Assembly: GCF_050320075.1 (NCBI RefSeq)
Contig: NZ_CP190018.1
From: Escherichia coli
GTDB taxonomy: Bacteria; Pseudomonadota; Gammaproteobacteria; Enterobacterales; Enterobacteriaceae
DNA length: 64,000 nt
Reading direction: 5' to 3' (one strand)
This document shows, one piece after another, positions 3,891 to 23,792 of this stretch. The notes beneath the pieces are model-generated. The model was not told the origin of the DNA and did not search any database. It saw nothing but the letters and a program-made list of their open reading frames with translations. Position 1 is the stretch's first letter. Every line of letters starts with the position of its first letter. The position numbers were made by a program, and so were the translations under genes.

Positions 3891-4421
3891 ATGGAAGTCG
3901 AAAAAATGCTGGTCAAGGACCGGAAGTGTGGCTCTTGCTCAGTTTGCTGTGTTTCTTTGGCAATAGATGAGCCCGAATTGAAAAAAAAGCATGCGGTACC
4001 GTGTACCTATCTCAGGCCTCAGGGTGGTTGCTCGATCTATGCTGATCGACCGTCATTGTGCAAAACATGGCACTGCGGATGGCGGATGATGCCTTTCATG
4101 GGGCCTGCGTTAAGACCAGATCGGTCCAATCTCCTAGTGCGCTTCACGGGAGAATGTTGGATTTTCGGTGATGCTGACGACCAAAGGGAATCTGCATTAA
4201 TGAATAATGATACTTTAAACGCAATGAGCGCTCTGGTCTCGCGTAATATGAAAGTTTCAGTATCAGTTCCAACTAAGCCGGGTTATTGCGACGCTGAACA
4301 TGTCATCAATGATGATATTATGGAGGCGGTAAAAGAACGGTCTTTGTCAAAAGTTAAAGAAATAATTTGGACAGTAATTTGCCGGTGCAAAGTCTCCGCG
4401 ACCAACCCGCGAAAGCAATAA
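3891..4421 (+). CDS. YkgJ-like CxxCxxCC cysteine-cluster protein (putative Zn/Fe-binding), moron on the strand opposite the late genes
   Basis: ORF 3849-4421; preferred start is ATG 3891 preceded by GAGGTG; motif CGSCSVCC plus further Cys residues; opposite orientation to the flanking late operon. Confidence 0.6.
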   Translation: MEVEKMLVKDRKCGSCSVCCVSLAIDEPELKKKHAVPCTYLRPQGGCSIYADRPSLCKTWHCGWRMMPFMGPALRPDRSNLLVRFTGECWIFGDADDQRESALMNNDTLNAMSALVSRNMKVSVSVPTKPGYCDAEHVINDDIMEAVKERSLSKVKEIIWTVICRCKVSATNPRKQ

Positions 4422-16338: not shown

Positions 16339-16439
16339 TGGCGACCGCGAAGGAATGCGGGTATGCCTTAATTTGTCCCGAGTCGAAGTATTAAATCAGC
16401 GTTATTTCCTTGGGCCATGTCCATTCTGAGAACAATCAT

Positions 16440-17045
16440 ATGAGCAAAGAATTTTACGCAAGACTGGCAGCTATTCAGGAGAATCTGAACGCGCCAAAGA
16501 ATCAGTACAACTCATTCGGTAAATATAAATACAGAAGCTGCGAAGACATTCTTGAAGGCGTTAAGCCGTTACTGAATGGCCTGTTTTTATCAATCAGCGA
16601 TGAAGTTGTGTTGATTGGTGATCGGTATTATGTGAAAGCCACGGCAACTATTACCGATGGCGAAAACAGTCATACGGCAACCGCACTAGCACGAGAGGAA
16701 GAAAGCAAGAAAGGAATGGATTCTGCACAAGTTACGGGGGCTACAAGCTCTTATGCACGCAAGTATTGCCTCAATGGTTTGTTCGGCATTGATGATGCGA
16801 AAGATGCAGATACCGACGAGCATAAACATCAGCAGAACGCAGCAGCAAAGCAATCAAAACCATCACCTACACCTGAACAGGTTCTAAAAGCATTCACTGA
16901 CGCAGCAATGCAGAAAAACACCGTAGAAGAGCTTAAACAGGCGTTCGCCAAAGCGTGGAAGATGCTCGAAGGGACGCCGGAGCAGCACAAAGCGCAGGAC
17001 GTTTACAACATCAGACGAGGCGAATTAGAAGGGGCAACTGCTTAA
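16440..17045 (+). CDS. erf: Erf single-strand annealing protein (P22 Erf family)
   Basis: MSKEFYARLAAIQENLNAPKNQYNSFGKYKYRSCEDILEGVKPLL... matches P22 Erf from memory. Confidence 0.9.
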   Translation: MSKEFYARLAAIQENLNAPKNQYNSFGKYKYRSCEDILEGVKPLLNGLFLSISDEVVLIGDRYYVKATATITDGENSHTATALAREEESKKGMDSAQVTGATSSYARKYCLNGLFGIDDAKDADTDEHKHQQNAAAKQSKPSPTPEQVLKAFTDAAMQKNTVEELKQAFAKAWKMLEGTPEQHKAQDVYNIRRGELEGATA

Positions 17046-17428
17046 TGGCACATTCGATTACAGTAAGACTAAACAAGCCCGCAAGAGAGTTTCAGGCCGG
17101 GGAAAATATCGGATTCAACATCCGTGCTGGCGTTCAGTATTACGATCGCCAGACAAAAAAGAAAGAATGGACAAACTACAGCGCCGTTGTATTTGCCAAG
17201 CCGGGGGCGCAAGCGGATTACTACCGTAGTGTTCTTGTTGAAGGTGGCATTGTTGAAGTTACCGGAGAAAACATCAGGGTTGATGTTTATCAGGGGCAAA
17301 ATGGTCAATCAATCACTCTTGAATTACTGAATGCAAAGATTGGATTTGCAGCTTCAGGAAACAGCCAACAGCAGCAAAGTAGCAATCATCAAAATAATCC
17401 TGAATACGACGATTCAATTCCCTTCTAA
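17045..17428 (+). CDS. SSB-like single-stranded DNA-binding protein
   Basis: 127 aa from ATG 17045 (TAATG overlap with erf stop); ends with the SSB-type acidic tail ...EYDDSIPF. Confidence 0.75.
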   Translation: MAHSITVRLNKPAREFQAGENIGFNIRAGVQYYDRQTKKKEWTNYSAVVFAKPGAQADYYRSVLVEGGIVEVTGENIRVDVYQGQNGQSITLELLNAKIGFAASGNSQQQQSSNHQNNPEYDDSIPF

Positions 17429-17451: not shown

Positions 17452-17748
17452 ATGCCAGCGCCTCTGTATGGTGCGGATGACCCGCGCCGCTGTTCCGGCA
17501 ATTCCGTATCGGAGGTGCTGGATAAATTCAGAAAAAACTACGATCGGATAATGTCGCTACCGCAGGAAACGAAAAAGGAAAAGGAATTTCGCCACTGTAT
17601 ATGGCTTGCAGAGAAAGAAGAACGCGAGCTAATTTACCAGACATCAATCCGACCATTCCGCAAAGCCACATATACCCACTTCCCTGAATATATCGACCCG
17701 CGCCTGCGTAATTACCGCTCACGCTATGGCGCTATCAGTAATGACTGA
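17452..17748 (+). CDS. Hypothetical early accessory protein
   Basis: 98 aa ORF in the early-left operon. Confidence 0.5.
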   Translation: MPAPLYGADDPRRCSGNSVSEVLDKFRKNYDRIMSLPQETKKEKEFRHCIWLAEKEERELIYQTSIRPFRKATYTHFPEYIDPRLRNYRSRYGAISND

Positions 17749-17758
17749 GGAATTAACA

Positions 17759-18049
17759 ATGAAAACAATGAAGATAAACATCGACCTCGGAAAATACGTT
17801 ATTACCGGAACCAAACACGATCTGATTCTTAGTGAAAGAGGAATTATCAAAGAAGGCGAGAATGCAGGGAAAGAAACACTAAGCCGTATCGGTTATTACA
17901 GCAAGTTTGAGCATCTGGTTAAAGAATTATGCAACCGTGAAATCCTGTTATCTCAGGCGCAGACGCTACAGGATATTCAGCAACATATCGAGAATTTAGG
18001 TGTGTCACTTAGCATGGCTATTGACCAGTTCGTGGAGAGTAAATCATGA
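17759..18049 (+). CDS. Hypothetical early accessory protein (start uncertain)
   Basis: Internal Met of ORF 17726-18049. Confidence 0.4.
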
Positions 18050-18206
18050 GAGGACTTGCATACAATCCCGGCATTCTTCCGGCAGAAATGATTATTCGCC
18101 AACGCGTAAAGCCAATGCCATCGAGAGAGGAATTGCTCAAGAGAAATTCTTTTCCGTCAGTAAATCAAAACAAATATCTGAATGCGATGTGGCGGAGTGG
18201 GAAGAA

Positions 18207-18647
18207 ATGAAACAAATGTCACTAATTGAGATGGATGGTTTTCTGAAAGGTAAATGCATCCCAAGTGATTTAAAGGTTAACGAAACAAACGCTGAATATC
18301 TTGTCCGTAAGTTCGGTGAACTTGAATCAAAACTCAACGAGCAGCGTGAGTATTACGAAGGTGTTATCTCGGATGGGAGTAAGCGTATTGCAGAACTGGA
18401 AAGCAACGAAGTCCATGAAGACGGAAATCAGTTTCTTGTTGTTCGCCACCCCGGGAAATCTCCGGTAATCAAGCACTGCACTGGTGACCTGGAAGAGTTT
18501 CTGCGGAAGTTAATCGAACAAGACCCGTTAGTAACTATCGACATCATTACGCATCGCTATTACGGGATTGGCGGTCAATGGGTTCAGGATGCAGTTGAGT
18601 ATCTGCATATGATGTCTGAAGCTGGCATTCGCATCAAAGGAGAGTGA
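18207..18647 (+). CDS. Hypothetical early accessory protein (start uncertain; ORF track gives 18000)
   Basis: In-frame Met after GGAG; shares a ...SPVI... stretch with the next gene. Confidence 0.4.
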
Positions 18648-18648
18648 T

Positions 18649-19728
18649 ATGAGCACTATCACTAAAGAACGTATCGAATTGTTCATTAAATCCCCGCTTG
18701 AAAACGGGCTTACCCGTGGCGAACAAATGGAACTGGCACGAATTGCACTGGCATCACTGGAACGCGAACAGATTCGCCACGAGCATGCCAAATGGTCTGA
18801 CTCCACATTTGGCTGCGTTGGCCCCATTGGTCCACTGAAACACCTCTCAAAAGAGGCACTGGAAGCCGCAGCCGAACCAGACGATCTTAGCGAGTGGGCT
18901 GATATGCAGTTTCTGTTGTGGGATGCACAGCGCCGTGCTGGCATCAGCGATGCTGAAATTACCGCTGCTATGGAAGATAAATTGAAGATCAACATGGAGC
19001 GCCAGTGGCCTGAACCAAAAGATGGTGAGCCTCGCTTGCACATTAAAGAACCCGGCAACTCTCCGGTAATTCCGGATGGTTTATCCACGGTATGCGCTGA
19101 GGCTTATCAGGTTGTAGGAGTTATGGCAGATGCGCTTGGTGTATTCGGTGATGCAGCAGTACAGAAAGTTCTGGATAACCTGTCACAGCAAAAACTTGTT
19201 CACAGAGATGTGCTGCCGTTCTCGCTTCCGGTGACTCCGGATGGTTGGATAAGCTGTAGTGAGCGAATGCCTGTAATTGGCGAGCTAAATTGGAGAACTA
19301 GTTTTCCTTTACTGGTTACGTGTGAGATCGGCGTTATACCTGCTTATTACGGCTTTGTGAGCGTTAATGGTGATAGGCATTATGGCTTTATGGAGAGTCT
19401 TAAATACGGAGACGATAACGGCAACCATCCTCAAACTAATGAATATGGTCTGATTAGCAATGTCACACACTGGATGCCACTACCAGAACGCCGCAGGAGT
19501 CGAACAGTGAATAATGCAGAGTTATTTCAGAAAATTTCGGCTCTCGCGACTGAATGCCACGCTATAGCATCTGAGCTTGATGTTGGCGATGAACGAACCG
19601 AGATGTTCGAAATATACAGTGTGCTGCGCAATCTCTGTCGGCGTGGCTACGCCACTCAAGTAGGGCGAATGACTAACCCACTACTCTCATTCTGTGATGA
19701 GGATGACTCGGATGAGGATGACGAATGA
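18649..19728 (+). CDS. Two-domain early accessory protein with DUF551-like C-terminal region
   Basis: 359 aa; W-x-S-x-S-E-R-x-P motif (WISCSERMP); acidic C-terminus. Confidence 0.55.
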   Translation: MSTITKERIELFIKSPLENGLTRGEQMELARIALASLEREQIRHEHAKWSDSTFGCVGPIGPLKHLSKEALEAAAEPDDLSEWADMQFLLWDAQRRAGISDAEITAAMEDKLKINMERQWPEPKDGEPRLHIKEPGNSPVIPDGLSTVCAEAYQVVGVMADALGVFGDAAVQKVLDNLSQQKLVHRDVLPFSLPVTPDGWISCSERMPVIGELNWRTSFPLLVTCEIGVIPAYYGFVSVNGDRHYGFMESLKYGDDNGNHPQTNEYGLISNVTHWMPLPERRRSRTVNNAELFQKISALATECHAIASELDVGDERTEMFEIYSVLRNLCRRGYATQVGRMTNPLLSFCDEDDSDEDDE

Positions 19729-20108
19729 TGCATAAATCAGTAGCCGGTGAGTTTCAGAAGGAAGTCGATAATACCACTGATCTATTGGACGATATTTTAA
19801 GCATTCTCGCGCTGCTTGAGGCTGGCGATTGGTCAGAACATTGCACTAAAACAGAGCTAGGCGGTCGGCTTGAAAGAGAGATTACACGACTGATTAGCGA
19901 TGCCCAAAATGATTTGTCACCTGAGCATCTCCCCTGCGATGTAGTTCTTGTGCCAGGGATGAGGATACACGAAGGCGTCAGAACGAAAACATTATTAACC
20001 GCATTACAGAGGAGAGCCGAACTAAGCTCGCGGATAAAGTTGATGCCATCCAAAATATTTGATGTCGTCAAATTTACGCCATCGCAACATACTGAGAGAG
20101 ATAAATGA
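19725..20108 (+). CDS. Hypothetical early accessory protein
   Basis: 127 aa; 4-nt overlaps with neighbours. Confidence 0.5.
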   Translation: MMHKSVAGEFQKEVDNTTDLLDDILSILALLEAGDWSEHCTKTELGGRLEREITRLISDAQNDLSPEHLPCDVVLVPGMRIHEGVRTKTLLTALQRRAELSSRIKLMPSKIFDVVKFTPSQHTERDK

Positions 20109-20731
20109 GCACGGTAGCGAACGATCTCACAGAAGATATTCTCAATGAAATTATTGCTGGTGCAAATACCTCGCTTGAGCAACTTCTTGCGTTAGCACTG
20201 AGAGCCGAACGTCGAGACAGAAATCGTTTTTATGAGCGATTACCAGGGAAGCGACCAGATAGATCGGATGAAGAAGGTTGCGATATAGACTACATGGAGC
20301 CTTCAGAGATTTATCAACTTGGTAAAGATGACGGCTGGAACGCTTATCACGATGCTGTGATGAAGTTGGATGAAAAAGTTAAACCTCTTTCTCGACCGGT
20401 AGATCACGGTTTCCGCGATAACTGCGAATGCTCTAGTTGCCAGACCACGACCCGTATTTGTTCCGAATTGACAGATAAGTCCAGCCTAATCTACGAAGTT
20501 AATGTAGGCGGTAATACATGGGTCGAATGCACAAGAGCTGCATACGTAAGAGCAAAAGACAAGGGTGAATTAACCAGAGTTGTTACCAATCACCCAAATA
20601 ATGAGCTTAAAGATCACCAGATTCGAGAACTGGTGAACGAGTTGAGAGATATTGCGGTTCAGTACCACGGAACGCAGCAATTGCGGGAGAAGATTGCCAG
20701 AGCAGTGAACAACTCAGTCCGTAAAAAATAA
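20105..20731 (+). CDS. Hypothetical early accessory protein (Cys cluster CECSSCQ)
   Basis: 208 aa ORF; last gene before the ORF-free gap. Confidence 0.55.
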   Translation: MSTVANDLTEDILNEIIAGANTSLEQLLALALRAERRDRNRFYERLPGKRPDRSDEEGCDIDYMEPSEIYQLGKDDGWNAYHDAVMKLDEKVKPLSRPVDHGFRDNCECSSCQTTTRICSELTDKSSLIYEVNVGGNTWVECTRAAYVRAKDKGELTRVVTNHPNNELKDHQIRELVNELRDIAVQYHGTQQLREKIARAVNNSVRKK

Positions 20732-20748
20732 GCAATAGTACGATAAAG

Positions 20749-20773
20749 AGGCCCCATGCTCTTGATGGGGCCT
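20749..20773 (-). terminator. Intrinsic terminator for the small peptide gene
   Basis: 9-bp stem AGGCCCCAT/ATGGGGCCT with 7-nt loop, 14 nt after the peptide stop; on the minus strand followed by CTCTTTATCG...TTATTTTTTAC. Confidence 0.45.
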
Positions 20774-20786
20774 GTAGCAACTAGCG

Positions 20787-20870
20787 TTATGGACGCTGGT
20801 TTACGTACTCAATGATCGCTTTGATAATCGCGAACATCGGCGGCACGATTTTGAACAGTAAGTTAACCAT
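20787..20870 (-). CDS. Candidate type I toxin: 27-aa hydrophobic peptide MVNLLFKIVPPMFAIIKAIIEYVNQRP
   Basis: ATG 20870 preceded by GAGG at -8; stop 20787-20789; terminator follows; not in ORF track (below size cutoff). Confidence 0.4.
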   Translation of the reverse strand: MVNLLFKIVPPMFAIIKAIIEYVNQRP

Positions 20871-21117
20871 AACAGGCCTCACTTAGTTTTATCGCGCCTA
20901 GCTGCAAATACCTTTGGGCTTGCCTTTGCAGTTGCAATATCTGTAGTCGCCAGATACTTACGGCACGATTTCGAGTTAAGGTAAGGTTTTAGAGTCACCA
21001 AAAACCTGGACTTAAATCTTCTTTGAGAACAACGATGTTTAGTAAATGGTCATTATTACCTGGTATGACCACTCAACGTTTCTTGATGAATCCAGTACAT
21101 TCGGTTAATCTTAATTC

Positions 21118-21201
21118 AGTCGCCAGATACTTATGGCTCAGGAACAGAGCCGCAAACTCTGTTTCCTTTTAAAAAGCCCAGCCTAGTCAACTGGGCTTTT
21201 T
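21118..21201 (+). ncRNA. Candidate antitoxin sRNA with 5' seed complementary to the peptide mRNA leader
   Basis: Promoter-like TTGATG (21083-21088), 17 bp, TAATCT (21106-21111); 5' AGUCGCCAGAUACUUAUGG pairs with the leader copy at 20945-20963; internal hairpin; intrinsic terminator AGCCCAG...CTGGGCT + T-run at 21171-21201. Confidence 0.4.
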
Positions 21202-21496
21202 AATGTCTATTTTTAACCCAATGAACCTTCAATACCGTAACATCAGTGTCTTGCGAATTAAGATAGTGTGTATAGGTTATGCATGCAAGTACATAACTCT
21301 GTGGATAACTCAGGAAGGAAAAAGTAGCTCCCGCGCAATTTAGGCCAGACAAGGCTTTCGCAAAAGTCAACAGAGAGAAAAAATTTGTTAAAAATAACGT
21401 TTGTTGGAATTGTATATATTTATGCCTTTCAATAGTTAGCATCTTATTAACATCTTTTTTAAGAGATAGAGTTCAAAAATATATAGCTTCAACATA

Positions 21497-21516
21497 TACT
21501 GTATGTGTATACAGTA
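21497..21516 (+). promoter_or_regulatory. LexA (SOS) box TACTGTATGTGTATACAGTA upstream of the humD-like gene
   Basis: Perfect CTGT-N8-ACAG palindrome about 17 bp upstream of ATG 21533. Confidence 0.75.
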
Positions 21517-21532
21517 TTAAGAGGCGAGTATT

Positions 21533-21922
21533 ATGGGCTTCCCTTCTCCTGCGGCGGATTATGCTGAGAGCCGTATTTCTCTTGATCAGCAGATAATTAG
21601 ACATCCTTCAGCGACCTACTTCATGAGGGCAGCTGATAGTCATCATCGTGAGGGAATATTACAGGGTGCATTGCTGGTGGTCGATTCCTCACTTACCCCG
21701 GTTGATGGTTCTCTGCTTGTATGCGCTCTGGATGGGGAATATCGCGTAAAAAGATACCGGAAGTATCCACGTCAGCATCTGGAGGATTTAAGAACCGGTA
21801 AGAAGGAAGCATTGCCAAAGGATGACGATGGATGCACGGGCAGCAATGCCGTGTTTGGTGTGATCACTCACATTATCAACGACGCAAGAAGTGGCGAGTT
21901 TGATGATTGTCCCGTGATGTAG
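21533..21922 (+). CDS. UmuD/HumD-like S24 peptidase (translesion synthesis accessory)
   Basis: 129 aa; UmuD-like sequence; SOS box upstream; no umuC partner in the window. Confidence 0.75.
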   Translation: MGFPSPAADYAESRISLDQQIIRHPSATYFMRAADSHHREGILQGALLVVDSSLTPVDGSLLVCALDGEYRVKRYRKYPRQHLEDLRTGKKEALPKDDDGCTGSNAVFGVITHIINDARSGEFDDCPVM

Positions 21923-22227
21923 GAGAACTGATTAGGCGGTGCAATGCACCGCCTTTTTATCACACTGCGCGGAATGCGATTTCGCCAGGTATTACTTCAC
22001 CTTGCCAATACATTTGGACAGCAGACTTTCGGCGATGCGTTGCACTTGTTGAGCAGATTCCAGAAATCAGAGATTCATTCGACAAGGTTGCAAAGCGCGT
22101 TCCGGCATTCAAAGGAATCCTCAACGAATGGGATTCCCTCGTTGATCTGTTGAAGTCTGAAATGAAGATACACGGAAACAAAGCACCAGAGACTTACAGA
22201 AGAATTAGCGAGTTACGCAAGGACTAA
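21907..22227 (+). CDS. Hypothetical protein downstream of the humD-like gene
   Basis: 106 aa ORF overlapping the humD end; no recognisable motif. Confidence 0.35.
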   Translation: MSRDVGELIRRCNAPPFYHTARNAISPGITSPCQYIWTADFRRCVALVEQIPEIRDSFDKVAKRVPAFKGILNEWDSLVDLLKSEMKIHGNKAPETYRRISELRKD

Positions 22228-22317: not shown

Positions 22318-22665
22318 GTGGAAGAAGAAATCTTCACTCGTGAAGAGGCAGCGTCGTATCTGAAGGTAGACAAAGGCACTATCACGCAGTGGATACGAAG
22401 TGGACGACTTCAGGCCGCAAAGATAAATCCAGATAAACCTAAAAGCCCATATCGCATTTGCAAGTCAGACTGCATTGCGGCGCTTAAGTCTGTGAGACAC
22501 AATAGCGCGGTGAATGCGGTTGATGTGCAGGAGGTTAAAGCATGTCAATCAAACTACGCGGTGGCACGTGGCACTGCGATTTCGTCGCGCCAGATGGATC
22601 AAGAGTTAGACGCTCTCTTGAAACATCGGACAAAAGGCAAGCGCAAGAACTTCACGATCGTCTGA
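22318..22665 (+). CDS. xis: Excisionase (Xis), P22-like; 3' end uncertain
   Basis: Immediately upstream of int; ORF overlaps the int start by about 120 nt. Confidence 0.55.
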   Translation: MEEEIFTREEAASYLKVDKGTITQWIRSGRLQAAKINPDKPKSPYRICKSDCIAALKSVRHNSAVNAVDVQEVKACQSNYAVARGTAISSRQMDQELDALLKHRTKGKRKNFTIV

Positions 22666-23702
22666 AAGCAGAAGCGTGGAGAGTAAAAAATCTCGGGGAA
22701 TCACCGAAAAAGCTATTCAAGGAAGCCTGCATACGGTGGCTGCGTGAGAAATCGGATAAGAAGTCCATTGATGATGACAAGAGCATTATATCGTTCTGGA
22801 TGTTGCACTTCAGAGAAGCCATTCTCTCTGACATAACAACAGAAAAAATAATGGAGGCGGTAGATGGGATGGAAAACCGCCGCCATCGCCTGAACTGGGA
22901 GATGAGCCGGGACAGGTGTTTGCGACTTGGCAATCCGGTGCCGGAGTATAAACCAAAGCTTGCAAGCAAAGGAACGAAGACGAGGCATCTGGCAATACTT
23001 CGCGCCATTCTCAATATGGCTGTTGAATGGGGATGGCTTGACAGGGCACCCAAAATATCAACACCACGCGTTAAGAATGGACGCATCAGATGGCTTACAG
23101 AGGAGGAATCGAAGCGCCTGTTTGCAGAAATTGCTCCTCACTTCTTCCCTGTGGTCATGTTTGCAATCACGACAGGCCTTCGCCGTTCCAACGTTACAGA
23201 CCTTGAGTGGTCACAGGTCGATCTGGATAAGAAAATGGCATGGATACACCCTGATGAAACAAAAGCTGGCAATGCGATCGGAGTTCCTCTTAACGAAACC
23301 GCATGCCAGATATTAAGAAAACAGCAGGGGCTCCATAAGAGATGGGTATTTGTCCACACCAAACCTGCCTACCGAAGCGACGGAACAAAAACAGCAGCGG
23401 TAAGGAAGATGAGAACCGACAGCAACAAGGCATGGAAGGGAGCGTTAAAGCGGGCAGGCATTAGTAACTTCCGCTTCCATGATCTGAGGCATACCTGGGC
23501 AAGCTGGCTGGTTCAGTCCGGTGTCTCTCTTCTTGCACTTAAAGAGATGGGAGGATGGGAAACTCTCGAAATGGTTCAAAGATACGCCCACCTTTCAGCC
23601 GGGCATCTCACCGAGCACGCAAGCAAAATCGATGCGATTATAAGTCGCAATGGCACAAATACGGCACAAGAGGAGAACGTGGTGTATTTAAATATGGGGT
23701 AA
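22542..23702 (+). CDS. int: Tyrosine integrase, P22-type, thrW-specific
   Basis: 386 aa; aligns from the N-terminus with remembered P22 Int; catalytic HDLRHTWASWLVQ...YAHL motif; adjacent to tRNA-Thr. Confidence 0.9.
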   Translation: MSIKLRGGTWHCDFVAPDGSRVRRSLETSDKRQAQELHDRLKAEAWRVKNLGESPKKLFKEACIRWLREKSDKKSIDDDKSIISFWMLHFREAILSDITTEKIMEAVDGMENRRHRLNWEMSRDRCLRLGNPVPEYKPKLASKGTKTRHLAILRAILNMAVEWGWLDRAPKISTPRVKNGRIRWLTEEESKRLFAEIAPHFFPVVMFAITTGLRRSNVTDLEWSQVDLDKKMAWIHPDETKAGNAIGVPLNETACQILRKQQGLHKRWVFVHTKPAYRSDGTKTAAVRKMRTDSNKAWKGALKRAGISNFRFHDLRHTWASWLVQSGVSLLALKEMGGWETLEMVQRYAHLSAGHLTEHASKIDAIISRNGTNTAQEENVVYLNMG

Positions 23703-23716
23703 CTACTTGATTTAAA

Positions 23717-23792
23717 TGGTGCCGATAATAGGAGTCGAACCTACGACCTTCGCATTACGAATGCGCTGCTCTACCAACTGAGCTATATCGGC
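23717..23792 (-). tRNA. thrW: tRNA-Thr (anticodon CGU)
   Basis: 76-nt minus-strand sequence GCCGATATAGCTCAGTTGGTAGAGCAGCGCATTCGTAATGCG...CGGCACCA with cloverleaf. Confidence 0.95.

What the first reader, a model, noticed from the sequence alone, without database searches (positions are those of the whole stretch)
17452..20731. Early accessory block of six unassigned genes between the recombination module and the gap
Six consecutive ORFs (98 to 359 aa) in the position of the lambda b/ea region have no function I can assign, including one with a DUF551-like W-x-S-x-S-E-R-x-P motif and one with a CECSSCQ cysteine cluster. Such blocks in lambdoid phages often carry anti-defence or host-takeover functions. 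Two adjacent genes share a short ...SPVI... stretch.
Basis: inference. Interest (0 to 1): 0.45.

Follow-up and report, generated by a model that had tools for sequence, protein, structure and literature searches.

The report
Ordinary lambdoid prophage early accessory genes
This stretch is the usual variable "ea / exo-xis" accessory region of a lambdoid E. coli prophage; two of its genes (the RecBCD inhibitor Abc2 and a lambda Ea22 homologue) are already characterised, so it is ordinary rather than a block of six unknowns.

Summary
The six ORFs exist mechanically, but the gene model and the claim that none can be assigned are wrong in part. The block holds seven translationally coupled genes, eight ancestrally.

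- **Abc2** anti-RecBCD: 88% identical to the P22 protein solved on RecBCD.
- **DUF5405.**
- **DUF2737:**
- **Ea22 homologue:** its C-terminal domain matches the solved lambda Ea22 structure.
- **359-aa protein:** head, MazZ-like dATP/dGTP pyrophosphohydrolase domain, DUF551, plus a 73-aa neighbouring gene that appears to be fused on by a 1-nt frameshift.
- **Two mosaic proteins** built from short modules shared with many enterobacterial prophage proteins.

The DUF551 motif and CECSSCQ are real. The SPVI match alone is chance-level, but in the 359-aa protein it is part of a recurrent inter-module linker.

The whole block is 100% identical in three RefSeq E. coli genomes. Its right half recurs at about 99% in roughly 110-kb phage-plasmids.

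The most interesting detail is a conserved junction at the start of DUF551 (a 60-nt stretch whose core is an identical 29-mer). It sits at 4,400 sites in 2,397 of 5,426 E. coli genomes, joined to many unrelated cassettes. That fits recombinational cassette shuffling.

Verdict: a known kind of region, low interest.

The parts
17452..17748 (+). abc2, anti-RecBCD protein 2 (98 aa); belongs functionally to the erf/ssb recombination module upstream
   Evidence: Pfam PF11043 1-98/97, E=2.3e-60. phrog_656. PDB 8B1T/8B1U Anti-RecBCD protein 2, E=4.7e-55, about 88% identical over the full length. PGAP names it 'phage anti-RecBCD protein'.
17759..18049 (+).
   Evidence: Pfam PF17399, 25.5 bits against a cut-off of 21.6. 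phrog_154 alignment starts at residue 12 of the 107-aa ORF. GAGGA lies 7 nt before ATG 17759. No PDB relative.
18046..18210 (+).
   Evidence: Pfam PF10930 1-52/53, E=2.6e-31. phrog_1117, E=4e-38. PGAP CDS. Homologue of HK620 hkaI.
18207..18647 (+). Ea22-like gene (146 aa): variant N-terminus, short coiled coil, and a lambda-type Ea22 C-terminal domain (aa 66-146)
   Evidence: PDB 8DSX 'Protein ea22', E=3.7e-48, aa 66-146. Lambda DNA is 95.1% identical to window 18325-18650. Pfam Ead_Ea22 scores 23.2 bits, below its cut-off of 27.
18649..19728 (+). 359-aa composite ORF: MSTITKE...LARIALASLE head (aa 1-41), DUF550/MazZ-like NTP pyrophosphohydrolase (aa 42-137), GNSPVIPDG linker, helical spacer, DUF551 (aa 199-280), then read-through into a formerly separate 73-aa gene
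   Evidence: PF04447 E=9.8e-42 and PF04448 E=2.2e-9. AAGGAG Shine-Dalgarno sequence before ATG 18649. The exact 359-aa protein P0323 occurs on 31 contigs. PGAP splits it into a pseudogene plus an ATT-start CDS.
19222..19281 (+). Conserved linker/joint island coding ...SLPVTPDGWISCSERMPV... at the 5' edge of the DUF551 cassette
   Evidence: The 60-nt island has 4,400 places in 2,397 of 5,426 E. coli genomes. The adjacent 189-nt interior has 151 places in 145 genomes. An identical 29-mer is joined to 17 of 24 unrelated interiors in viral contigs.
19507..19728 (+). Ancestral stand-alone gene 'B' (73 aa from GTG 19507, AGGAG upstream), now in frame with the DUF551 gene
   Evidence: phrog_4220 2-73/79, E=4.9e-40. 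Annotated as a separate 73-aa CDS (WP_001718095.1) on plasmid pAVS0223-B. The other frame at 19470 reads ...TPQESNSE*, which is the canonical family terminus. Only 2 of 79 DUF551 genes read through like this.
19725..20108 (+). ORF5 (127 aa): portable N-terminal head (aa 1-63) plus a rarer C-terminal half; function unknown
   Evidence: phrog_19524 full length. Elsewhere the same head is fused to DUF551, a PF16473 exoribonuclease, an ArsR-type HTH, or the Cys module. No Pfam, NCBIfam, PDB or PADLOC match.
20105..20731 (+). ORF6 (208 aa): chain of mini-modules: head (aa 1-45), DIDYMEP..GWNA (aa 58-87), H-x7-CxCxxC-x8-C module (aa 96-123, contains CECSSCQ), EVNVGGNTW beta unit (aa 127-162), KDHQIRELVNELRD helix pair (aa 168-203); truncated relative to longer homologues
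   Evidence: phrog_21749. Module-wise homologues. Invariant H101, C107, C109, C112 and C119 in alignment A2. AlphaFold mean pLDDT 49.8, with only aa 127-162 above 80. Homologues continue about 65 aa beyond ...NNS.
20749..20773 (.). G+C-rich hairpin 18 nt after the ORF6 stop; it has a T-tract only on the minus strand
   Evidence: Terminator scan. The stem is conserved and the loop changed in phage-plasmid CMS-2020a.

Best explanation
**What it is.** The block is the promoter-distal accessory part of the early-left (PL) operon of a lambdoid prophage integrated at the Thr tRNA gene (annotated tRNA-Thr) next to proA. It is the same kind of region as P22/HK620 ea (hka) and lambda exo-xis.

**How it is expressed (inferred).** After induction or infection, N-antiterminated PL transcription runs through erf, an SSB-like gene and abc2, then continues through seven genes. 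These genes are coupled by ATGA or near-abutting stop/start junctions (shown in sequence).

**Gene products.**
- **Abc2** binds RecBCD and redirects it for Erf-dependent recombination, which also neutralises it as a defence. This is inferred from 88% identity to the solved P22 protein.
- **The Ea22 homologue** probably biases the lysis/lysogeny decision as lambda Ea22 does. This is inferred from the 93%-identical C-terminal domain.
- **The DUF550 domain of the 359-aa protein** is predicted to hydrolyse purine (d)NTPs or a related nucleotide to the monophosphate plus pyrophosphate. Its acidic ExxE...ExxD metal-binding motif is retained (E69, E72, E82, D85).
- **DUF5405, DUF2737, gene B, ORF5 and ORF6** have no known activity. 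ORF5 and ORF6 are beads-on-a-string assemblies of portable 30-60-aa modules and are most likely protein-binding accessory factors (inference).

**How it evolves.** The block evolves by homologous recombination at short conserved linker or joint sequences. This swaps modules between prophages and phage-plasmids and produces fusions, fissions and truncations.
For: **Context.** A cI-like repressor, N, Erf and an SSB-like gene lie upstream. humD, xis, int, tRNA-Thr and proA lie downstream. The gene order matches HK620 hkaJ-hkaE.

**Family assignments.**

**Coupling.** Stop/start overlaps are present at 18046, 18207, 19725 and 20105, and a strong Shine-Dalgarno sequence precedes 18649. No consensus promoter and no strong terminator lies inside the block.

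**Variability.**
- 3,207 of 5,426 E. coli genomes match part of the block, but only 3 match at least 80% of it.
- Megablast breakpoints recur at gene and module edges: query positions 303, 592, 874, 1199, 1310, 1630, 1776-1834 and 3265.
- The joint island is about 29 times more widespread than the cassette it borders.
- The joint keeps rare synonymous codons across 17 unrelated cassettes.

**Sharing with phage-plasmids.** Gene B, ORF5, ORF6, the gap and humD recur at about 99% identity on roughly 110-kb phage-plasmids.

**MazZ/DUF550 activity.** Reported in PMC12884076.
Against: - No experiment bears on this particular prophage.
- The Ea22 homologue has a different N-terminus and a shorter coiled coil than lambda Ea22. 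The lambda C-terminal domain alone is reported to be inactive (PMC10834534), so the phenotype may differ.
- The residue-level alignment of the DUF550 domain to solved MazZ is weak (E=0.88). The substrate in a phage with ordinary DNA is unknown.
- The PL promoter and nutL were not mapped here.
- The frameshift fusion and the truncated ORF6 could mean that part of the block is decaying.
Confidence: 0.85

Rival explanations
1. Beyond Abc2, one or more of the unassigned products (the DUF550-DUF551 protein, gene B, ORF5, ORF6, DUF5405, DUF2737) is a dedicated inhibitor of a host defence system. For example, the MazG-type domain might deplete (p)ppGpp or a nucleotide immune signal, and the variable DUF551 or mini-module proteins might bind defence proteins.
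For: - Abc2 sits in the same block.
- Accessory regions next to abc2 are documented sources of counter-defence genes.
- A phage MazG-like enzyme, Atd1, blunts TIR-based defence by degrading (p)ppGpp.
- The hypervariable cassette between conserved ends, with up to 8 copies of the joint per genome, is the pattern expected of arms-race proteins.
Against: - A DUF551 fragment appears in the gene list held in the supplement of the published accessory-gene screen. Whether it gave any phenotype there was not established.
- The DUF550 family is biochemically linked to dATP/dGTP hydrolysis, not to alarmones.
Confidence: 0.35
2. The unassigned genes act like the lambda exo-xis genes. They would be small modulators of the lysis-lysogeny decision, host replication or the stress response, rather than of immunity.
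For: - The position and operon are the same as lambda orf60a, orf61, orf63 and ea22.
- An Ea22 homologue lies inside the block.
- The exo-xis literature reports such phenotypes, and links the DUF551 protein YfdS to oxidative-stress tolerance.
Against: - None of lambda orf60a, orf61, orf63 or ea8.5 was detected here.
- The phenotypes reported for the lambda genes are mild and their mechanisms are unknown.
- Homology is limited to the Ea22 C-terminal part.
Confidence: 0.3
3. Much of the right half (the tail of the 359-aa ORF, ORF5 and ORF6) is selectively neutral mosaic debris. On this view these are gene fragments stitched together by illegitimate and homologous recombination, kept open by chance and hitch-hiking with useful neighbours.
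For: - The 1-nt frameshift fusion is seen in only 2 of 79 family members.
- ORF6 lacks the roughly 65-aa C-terminal domain of its longer homologues.
- PGAP flags pseudogenes here and on the plasmid copy.
- AlphaFold confidence for ORF6 is low.
- Fusion and fission variants are frequent.
Against: - All frames are intact, with preserved ATGA coupling.
- The same arrangement is kept at about 99% identity in both chromosomal prophages and phage-plasmids.
- Individual modules are conserved across many genera, with invariant Cys and His residues.
Confidence: 0.2

Closest known systems
P22 / HK620 'ea' (hka) region and lambda exo-xis region (non-essential distal PL-operon genes between the recombination genes and xis-int)
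   Same: Same position, orientation and operon. The gene order abc2 - DUF2737 - Ead/Ea22-like - DUF551 protein - xis - int matches HK620. The block is hypermosaic and most products lack a known function.
   Different: - This mosaic adds DUF5405, a lambda-type Ea22 C-terminal domain, a DUF550-DUF551 protein fused to a phrog_4220 gene, and two module-chain proteins otherwise found mostly on roughly 110-kb phage-plasmids.
- An SOS-controlled humD moron follows the block.
- The lambda genes orf60a, orf61, orf63 and ea8.5 are absent.
P22 Abc2 (anti-RecBCD protein 2; PDB 8B1T/8B1U)
   Same: Full-length match at about 88% identity. Same length (98 against 97 aa). Same location next to an Erf-family recombinase module.
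   Different: An SSB-like 127-aa gene, rather than abc1, lies between erf and abc2. Binding to RecBCD was not tested here.
Lambda Ea22 (pro-lysogenic exo-xis protein; C-terminal-domain NMR structure 8DSX)
   Same: The C-terminal 81 residues are about 93% identical, and the DNA is 95% identical to lambda over 326 nt. The end of the coiled coil ([20 protein letters not shown]) is shared.
   Different: The protein has 146 aa rather than 182. The N-terminal 39 aa belong to other families (phrog_614/583). The Pfam Ead_Ea22 match is below threshold.
MazZ / DUF550 dATP-dGTP pyrophosphohydrolases of Z-genome phages, and the MazG-like anti-defence enzyme Atd1
   Same: The match covers the whole PF04447 profile (E=1e-41). 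Four of the five acidic motif residues align with solved MazZ 7ODY.
   Different: - There is no purZ/datZ context, and the phage has ordinary DNA.
- The domain is embedded between an N-terminal head and DUF551. This fusion is itself very common: at least 7,992 proteins matched the 359-aa query, and both Pfam domains are on record for nearly all of the 120 best hits listed.
- The substrate is unknown.
- Relatedness to Atd1 was not tested.
DUF551 family (for example CPS-53 YfdS, P22 EaA, HK620 HkaE, Ea22 variant V2)
   Same: The N-terminal GWISCSERMP and C-terminal THWMPLP motifs are present, and the Pfam match is above threshold.
   Different: The interior is longer than usual (about 70 aa against a median of 46). 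The protein does not stop at the canonical EPPQE.. terminus.

Membership tests
Abc2 (P22 anti-RecBCD protein 2) | Full-length sequence match to the family model and to the structurally characterised protein | tested here: met
   PF11043 1-97/97, 201 bits. 8B1T chain, E=4.7e-55, about 88% identity, 1-98 against 1-97.
Abc2 (P22 anti-RecBCD protein 2) | Encoded next to the phage recombination genes in the PL operon | tested here: met
   Erf (PF04404, E=2.5e-44) and an SSB-like gene lie immediately upstream.
Abc2 (P22 anti-RecBCD protein 2) | Binds RecBCD and alters its activity | not testable with these tools
   Requires biochemistry or genetics.
Lambda Ea22 | Lambda-type C-terminal dimeric alpha/beta domain | tested here: met
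   8DSX, E=3.7e-48 over aa 66-146.
Lambda Ea22 | Central Ead_Ea22 coiled-coil signature (PF13935 / IPR025153) | tested here: inconclusive
   Only profile positions 113-139 match, at 23.2 bits against a cut-off of 27.
Lambda Ea22 | Lambda-type N-terminal segment | tested here: not met
   Nucleotide similarity to lambda starts only at window 18325. The N-terminus matches phrog_614/583/14548 instead.
Lambda Ea22 | Pro-lysogenic phenotype and tetrameric state | not testable with these tools
   Phenotypes are known only for lambda and Stx-phage Ea22 (PMC7093339, PMC10834534).
MazZ/DUF550 dATP-dGTP pyrophosphohydrolase (all-alpha NTP-PPase) | Full-length match to PF04447 | tested here: met
   aa 42-137 against profile positions 1-96/97, 141.6 bits, E=9.8e-42.
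MazZ/DUF550 dATP-dGTP pyrophosphohydrolase (all-alpha NTP-PPase) | Acidic metal-binding motif ExxE ... ExxD | tested here: met
   E69, E72, E82 and D85 align with the EEIGE and EVAD motifs of MazZ 7ODY. The pairwise alignment itself is weak (E=0.88).
MazZ/DUF550 dATP-dGTP pyrophosphohydrolase (all-alpha NTP-PPase) | Z-genome gene context (purZ, datZ, dpoZ) | tested here: not met
   No such genes appear in the annotated 19 kb around the block. The neighbours are ordinary lambdoid genes.
MazZ/DUF550 dATP-dGTP pyrophosphohydrolase (all-alpha NTP-PPase) | dATP/dGTP to dNMP + PPi activity | not testable with these tools
   Activity has been shown for other family members only (PMC12884076).
DUF551 | Pfam PF04448 match with the conserved W-x-S-x-x-E-R-x-P start and HWMPLP end | tested here: met
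   38.5 bits against a cut-off of 22. W15, S19, E20, R21, P23, W90, L93 and P94 are invariant in alignment A3.
DUF551 | A known fold or activity | tested here: not met
Phage accessory region / counter-defence hotspot | Variable gene content between conserved flanks, containing at least one known counter-defence gene | tested here: met
   Only 3 of 3,207 matching genomes carry at least 80% of the block. Abc2 is present. The concept is described.
Phage accessory region / counter-defence hotspot | Demonstrated anti-defence activity of the other genes | not testable with these tools
   No homology to characterised anti-defence proteins was found.
Anti-phage defence system carried by the prophage | Match to a known defence protein family | tested here: not met
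   No PADLOC hit for any of the seven products.

The most novel reading that the evidence does not exclude
The DUF551 proteins and mini-module proteins of this block may belong to a combinatorial cassette system. In this reading, a roughly 50-nt conserved joint (GNSPV(T/I)PDGWISCSERMP, kept even at synonymous sites with rare ATA and CGA codons) acts as a portable homologous-recombination site. It would be spread over thousands of sites in E. coli prophages and phage-plasmids, and through it hypervariable 36-65-aa binding cassettes and upstream modules would be reshuffled. The result would be a diversified repertoire of early proteins aimed at variable host targets such as defence systems.
Probability: 0.25. 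Interest if true: 0.55.

Novelty: already known. Interest (0 to 1): 0.2.

Why it matters
As it stands the finding matters little. It is a textbook variable early region, and its best-understood genes (abc2 and the ea22 homologue) were simply not recognised by eye. The work gives three useful outcomes.

1. **A corrected gene model.** There are seven genes. One gene was missed, one start codon was wrong, and one apparent frameshift fusion is also handled inconsistently by the public annotation.

2. **A testable enzyme prediction.** A very common but unstudied architecture joins a MazZ-like pyrophosphohydrolase to DUF551. What this does in phages with ordinary DNA is open. Candidates are pool sanitation, purine dNTP control, and alarmone or immune-signal removal.

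3. **A quantified example of gene shuffling in temperate phages.** Accessory proteins here appear to be assembled from portable modules at conserved joints. If these joints prove to be preferred recombination sites for a hypervariable binding domain, that would bear on how temperate phages diversify host-interaction proteins.

Tried and rejected
- **Structure of ORF6.** The AlphaFold run used a module-wise composite alignment, with rows concatenated from different proteins. This was needed because MAFFT misaligned the short fragments in A1. Mean pLDDT was 49.8 and only aa 127-162 were confident. No fold search was attempted on it.
- **PDB sequence searches.** ORF5, ORF6 and DUF5405 gave no meaningful hits.
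- **NCBIfam.** Nothing for any gene of the block.
- **PADLOC.** Nothing.
- **A shared N-terminal head in ORF4, ORF5 and ORF6.** I suspected this, but hhalign of the ORF5 and ORF6 heads against a 47-member alignment of the MSTITKE...LARIALASLE head family gave probabilities of 0.5-1.4%. Rejected.
- **Exhaustive HMMER search with the Cys-module region.** It found only about 100 short module-level relatives and no annotated domain.
- **SPVI as meaningful similarity between the two adjacent genes.** The 4-mer is chance-level. In Ea22 it lies inside the folded C-terminal domain (beta2 strand, PMC10834534), whereas in ORF4 it is a linker. Common origin remains unproven, although 18 of 21 nt are shared.
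- **Minus-strand ORFs inside the block** (186, 142, 66 and 64 aa). No family hits, so I treated them as shadows of the plus-strand genes.
- **DNA of an unfused close relative.** A look-up via P0341 found nothing on record. L005 (P0377) turned out to have yet another C-terminus.
- **The published accessory-gene screen.** A search of its supplement for these proteins found only an unrelated DUF551 fragment.
- **Rfam.** No family above threshold in 14.8-23.9 kb except the tRNA.


Full report
**Setting.** The window is E. coli chromosome. A lambdoid prophage ends at int (22542-23702), a Thr tRNA gene (23720-23792) and proA. The stretch 17452-20731 is 100% identical to three RefSeq E. coli chromosomes.

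Upstream on the same strand lie:
- a LexA-family (cI-type) repressor;
- a lambda-type N gene (PF11438);
- a few small ORFs with tL-like hairpins;
- an Erf-family recombinase (PF04404, E=2.5e-44);
- a 127-aa SSB-like gene (phrog_44).

Downstream lie an 800-bp stretch without annotated genes, humD, a gene fragment, xis and int. The block is therefore the promoter-distal part of the early-left operon. It corresponds to the lambda exo-xis region and the P22/HK620 ea (hka) region. HK620 shows the same order: abc2 (hkaJ), DUF2737 (hkaI), hkaH, Ead/Ea22-like (hkaG), hkaF, DUF551 (hkaE), eaG, xis, int.

**Checking the observation.** The six mechanical ORFs are present at the stated coordinates, and the three quoted motifs are real. 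The gene model needs correction in four places.

1. The 215-aa GTG ORF is an artefact of extending the Ea22-like gene upstream.
   - The real gene starts at ATG 18207 and encodes 146 aa.
   - The extension runs across a genuine 54-aa gene in another frame: DUF2737 at 18046-18210 (Pfam E=2.6e-31, phrog_1117 E=4e-38).
2. The DUF5405 gene probably starts at 17759. GAGGA lies 7 nt upstream, and the PHROG alignment begins at residue 12 of the 107-aa ORF. The 17726 start would overlap abc2.
3. Junctions are ATGA overlaps at 18046, 18207, 19725 and 20105. An AAGGAG Shine-Dalgarno sequence precedes ATG 18649. This supports translational coupling.
4. No consensus promoter and no convincing terminator lies inside the block. 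Minus-strand ORFs inside it have no family matches.

**Gene 1 is Abc2.** The 98-aa product matches PF11043 end to end (E=2.3e-60). It is about 88% identical over its full length to the P22 Anti-RecBCD protein 2 chain of PDB 8B1T/8B1U (E=4.7e-55). It belongs with the Erf recombination module and is a bona fide counter-defence and host-takeover protein.

**Gene 4 is an Ea22 homologue.** Residues 66-146 match the solved lambda Ea22 C-terminal domain (8DSX, E=3.7e-48, about 93% identity). Lambda DNA is 95.1% identical to window 18325-18650. The N-terminal 39 residues belong to other families, and the Pfam Ead_Ea22 coiled-coil match is below threshold.

Lambda and Stx-phage Ea22 are described as tetrameric, pro-lysogenic proteins with mosaic, swappable C-terminal domains. 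The C-terminal domain alone is reported to be inactive (PMC10834534 and PMC7093339). A similar role here is plausible but not certain.

**Gene 5 is the 359-aa ORF.** It has five parts.
- **Head (aa 1-41).** It belongs to a large MSTITKE...ELARIALASLE family, with 47 diverse variants among the fetched relatives.
- **DUF550 domain (aa 42-137).** It matches the full PF04447 dATP/dGTP pyrophosphohydrolase profile (E=9.8e-42).
  - In the weak pairwise alignment to solved MazZ (7ODY), E69, E72, E82 and D85 align with the acidic motif residues.
  - DUF550 proteins of Z-genome phages hydrolyse dGTP and dATP to the monophosphates (PMC12884076).
  - No Z-genome genes are nearby, so the physiological substrate is unknown.
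  - A different phage MazG-like enzyme, Atd1, degrades (p)ppGpp and blunts TIR-based defence.
- **Linker and spacer.** A GNSPVIPDG linker is followed by a helical spacer.
- **DUF551 (aa 199-280).** Pfam gives 38.5 bits against a cut-off of 22.
- **Fused tail (last 73 residues).**

The DUF550+DUF551 fusion is very common. At least 7,992 proteins matched the 359-aa query, and both Pfam domains are on record for nearly all of the 120 best hits listed. The exact 359-aa protein occurs on 31 contigs.

The last 73 residues are a separate gene family (phrog_4220, 2-73 of 79, E=4.9e-40).
- On phage-plasmid pAVS0223-B the identical DNA is annotated as a stand-alone 73-aa CDS.
- At 19470-19510 the other reading frame gives ...TPQESNSE*, which is the canonical terminus of DUF551 proteins. 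A GTG with AGGAG upstream begins MNNAELFQK....
- Among 79 DUF551 genes from viral contigs, all but about three stop 4-10 codons after HWMPLP, and only 2 read through as here.

I infer that a 1-nt deletion fused two genes. The downstream gene may still be translated on its own. PGAP's split of this ORF into a pseudogene plus an ATT-start CDS is another symptom of the odd junction.

At the DNA level the 5' end is remarkable.
- The 60-nt stretch 19222-19281 matches 4,400 places in 2,397 of 5,426 complete E. coli genomes, with up to 8 per genome and mostly at 95-99% identity.
- The adjacent 189-nt interior matches only 151 places in 145 genomes, and 97 of those places are on plasmids.
- Of these, 94 carry the identical 29-mer GGTTGGATAAGCTGTAGTGAGCGAATGCC, including the rare ATA and CGA codons.
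- This 29-mer is joined to 17 of 24 mutually unrelated interior cassettes. There are 26 upstream sequence clusters and 84 distinct upstream/interior combinations.
- The preceding linker GGCAACTCTCCGGTAACTCCGGAT is similarly conserved. The 3' HWMPLP motif, by contrast, varies freely at synonymous sites.

Conservation at synonymous sites across unrelated cassettes is not explained by protein-level selection. It fits a joint kept uniform by, and used for, homologous recombination.

Megablast breakpoints against phage genomes fall at gene and module edges, including this island: query positions 303, 592, 874, 1199, 1310, 1630, 1776-1834 and 3265. The principle of mosaic joints is old, and the Ea22 literature already calls DUF551 a portable domain. 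This is therefore a quantified instance, not a new kind of thing.

**ORF5 and ORF6.** Neither has a Pfam, NCBIfam, PDB or PADLOC match.

*ORF5.* It consists of a 63-aa head plus a rarer C-terminal half. In other Escherichia and Shigella prophages and phage-plasmids, the same head is fused to DUF551, to a PF16473 exoribonuclease, to an ArsR-type HTH, or to the Cys module of ORF6.

*ORF6.* It is a chain of mini-modules, each found in many other contexts:
- a head (aa 1-45);
- a DIDYMEP...GWNA helix unit;
H101, C107, C109, C112 and C119 are invariant in my composite alignment. A small metal-binding knuckle is a reasonable guess, but AlphaFold confidence there is low;
- an EVNVGGNTW...GELTRV beta-beta-alpha-beta unit, the only confidently modelled part (pLDDT 82-87);
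- the widespread helix pair KDHQIRELVNELRDIAxxYHGTQQLRExIA.

Longer homologues continue for about 65 aa after ...NNS. ORF6 is therefore truncated exactly where similarity to some phage-plasmids ends, at about 20716. The same 208-aa form occurs on pAVS0223-B. A PHROG family (phrog_20174) joins the ORF5 head directly to the ORF6 modules, as do P0005 and P0013. Fusion and fission are clearly frequent and tolerated.

**SPVI.**
- An exact shared tetrapeptide is expected by chance (48% of shuffles). PGxSPVI occurs in 2.3% of shuffles, and 18 of 21 nt are shared.
- In ORF4 the motif is one copy of the recurrent linker GNSPV(I/T)PDG(W/L/H/Y). This linker is present in 263 of 442 fetched relatives, after at least 15 different upstream modules.
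- In Ea22 the motif lies in strand beta2 of the folded domain (P122 and I124 in lambda).

**Conclusion.** This is an ordinary lambdoid early accessory region.
- Two products are well characterised.
- One is an enzyme of predictable chemistry.
- Four or five remain unknown.

It is literally true for Abc2 and untested for the rest. Interest is low. The conserved-joint, variable-cassette architecture of DUF551 is the one lead worth following.

Noticed in passing
window 21472-21954: humD (a UmuD'-like gene; NCBIfam HumD equivalog, E=8e-66) appears to be a self-contained SOS moron. It has a promoter-like site at 21472-21500 and a near-consensus LexA box, TACTGTATGTGTATACAGTA, at 21497-21516. A Shine-Dalgarno sequence and ATG 21533 follow, and a strong intrinsic terminator sits at 21934-21954. 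No humC/umuC-like partner was noticed in the ORF list or the PGAP annotation of the surrounding 19 kb.
   Followed up: partly
window 20880-21225: The centre of the 'gap' is almost invariant between this prophage and phage-plasmid CMS-2020a, with about 4 differences in 340 nt. Its flanks are about 10% diverged.
- It holds a 20-nt direct repeat, AGTCGCCAGATACTTA(C/T)GGC, at 20945 and 21118.
- It holds a perfect bidirectional terminator at 21169-21203.
- The segment 21100-21206 folds with z=-4.6.
- Rfam gives only sub-threshold AgrB and RNAI-like hits (27.6 and 23.1 bits).

This may be an unannotated small RNA or regulatory element.
   Followed up: partly
window 20787-20882 (minus strand): A 31-codon hydrophobic ORF (VRPVMVNLLFKIVPPMFAIIKAIIEYVNQRP, GTG start) converges on ORF6 and is followed on its own strand by the hairpin and T-tract at 20773-20749. 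Against CMS-2020a it shows 11 nt differences. Seven are at third codon positions and there are only four conservative amino-acid changes, which suggests a real small membrane-type peptide. It has no PHROG match.
   Followed up: partly
window 19239-21922; L003 (plasmid pAVS0223-B), phages Cyrano and CMS-2020a: The segment comprising the DUF551 cassette, gene B, ORF5, ORF6, the gap and humD is 93-99.7% identical on roughly 107-112-kb E. coli phage-plasmids. The DUF551 interior is found more often on plasmids (97 places) than on chromosomes (54 places). This indicates recent exchange between an integrated lambdoid prophage and phage-plasmids. Part of the humD upstream region (21284-21470) is 86% identical to P1 and P7.
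   Followed up: partly
window 18649-18826 and L001/L003 annotations: RefSeq PGAP annotates the intact 359-aa ORF as a 42-codon pseudogene plus a CDS with an ATT start. On the plasmid copy it calls the DUF551 part a pseudogene. Other submitters call the full 359-aa protein (P0323). The public annotation of this gene is inconsistent.
   Followed up: yes
window 21200-21442 (minus strand): An 80-aa ORF matches phrog_28987 over its full length (E=1e-55) and ends at the bidirectional terminator. In CMS-2020a, however, it is interrupted by a stop, and its 27 differences are spread evenly over codon positions. It is probably not a conserved protein-coding gene.
   Followed up: partly
window 22021-22227: A gene fragment lies between humD and xis. 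PGAP marks it as a pseudogene lacking its N-terminus, and it matches phrog_1229 at positions 46-113 of 116. This is another remnant of recombination in this region.
   Followed up: no
window 16410-17428: The recombination module is Erf plus a 127-aa SSB-like protein (phrog_44; no Pfam match), followed directly by abc2. No abc1 is present. A small ORF at 16150-16338 matches phrog_2123, which is annotated 'recombinase'.
   Followed up: no
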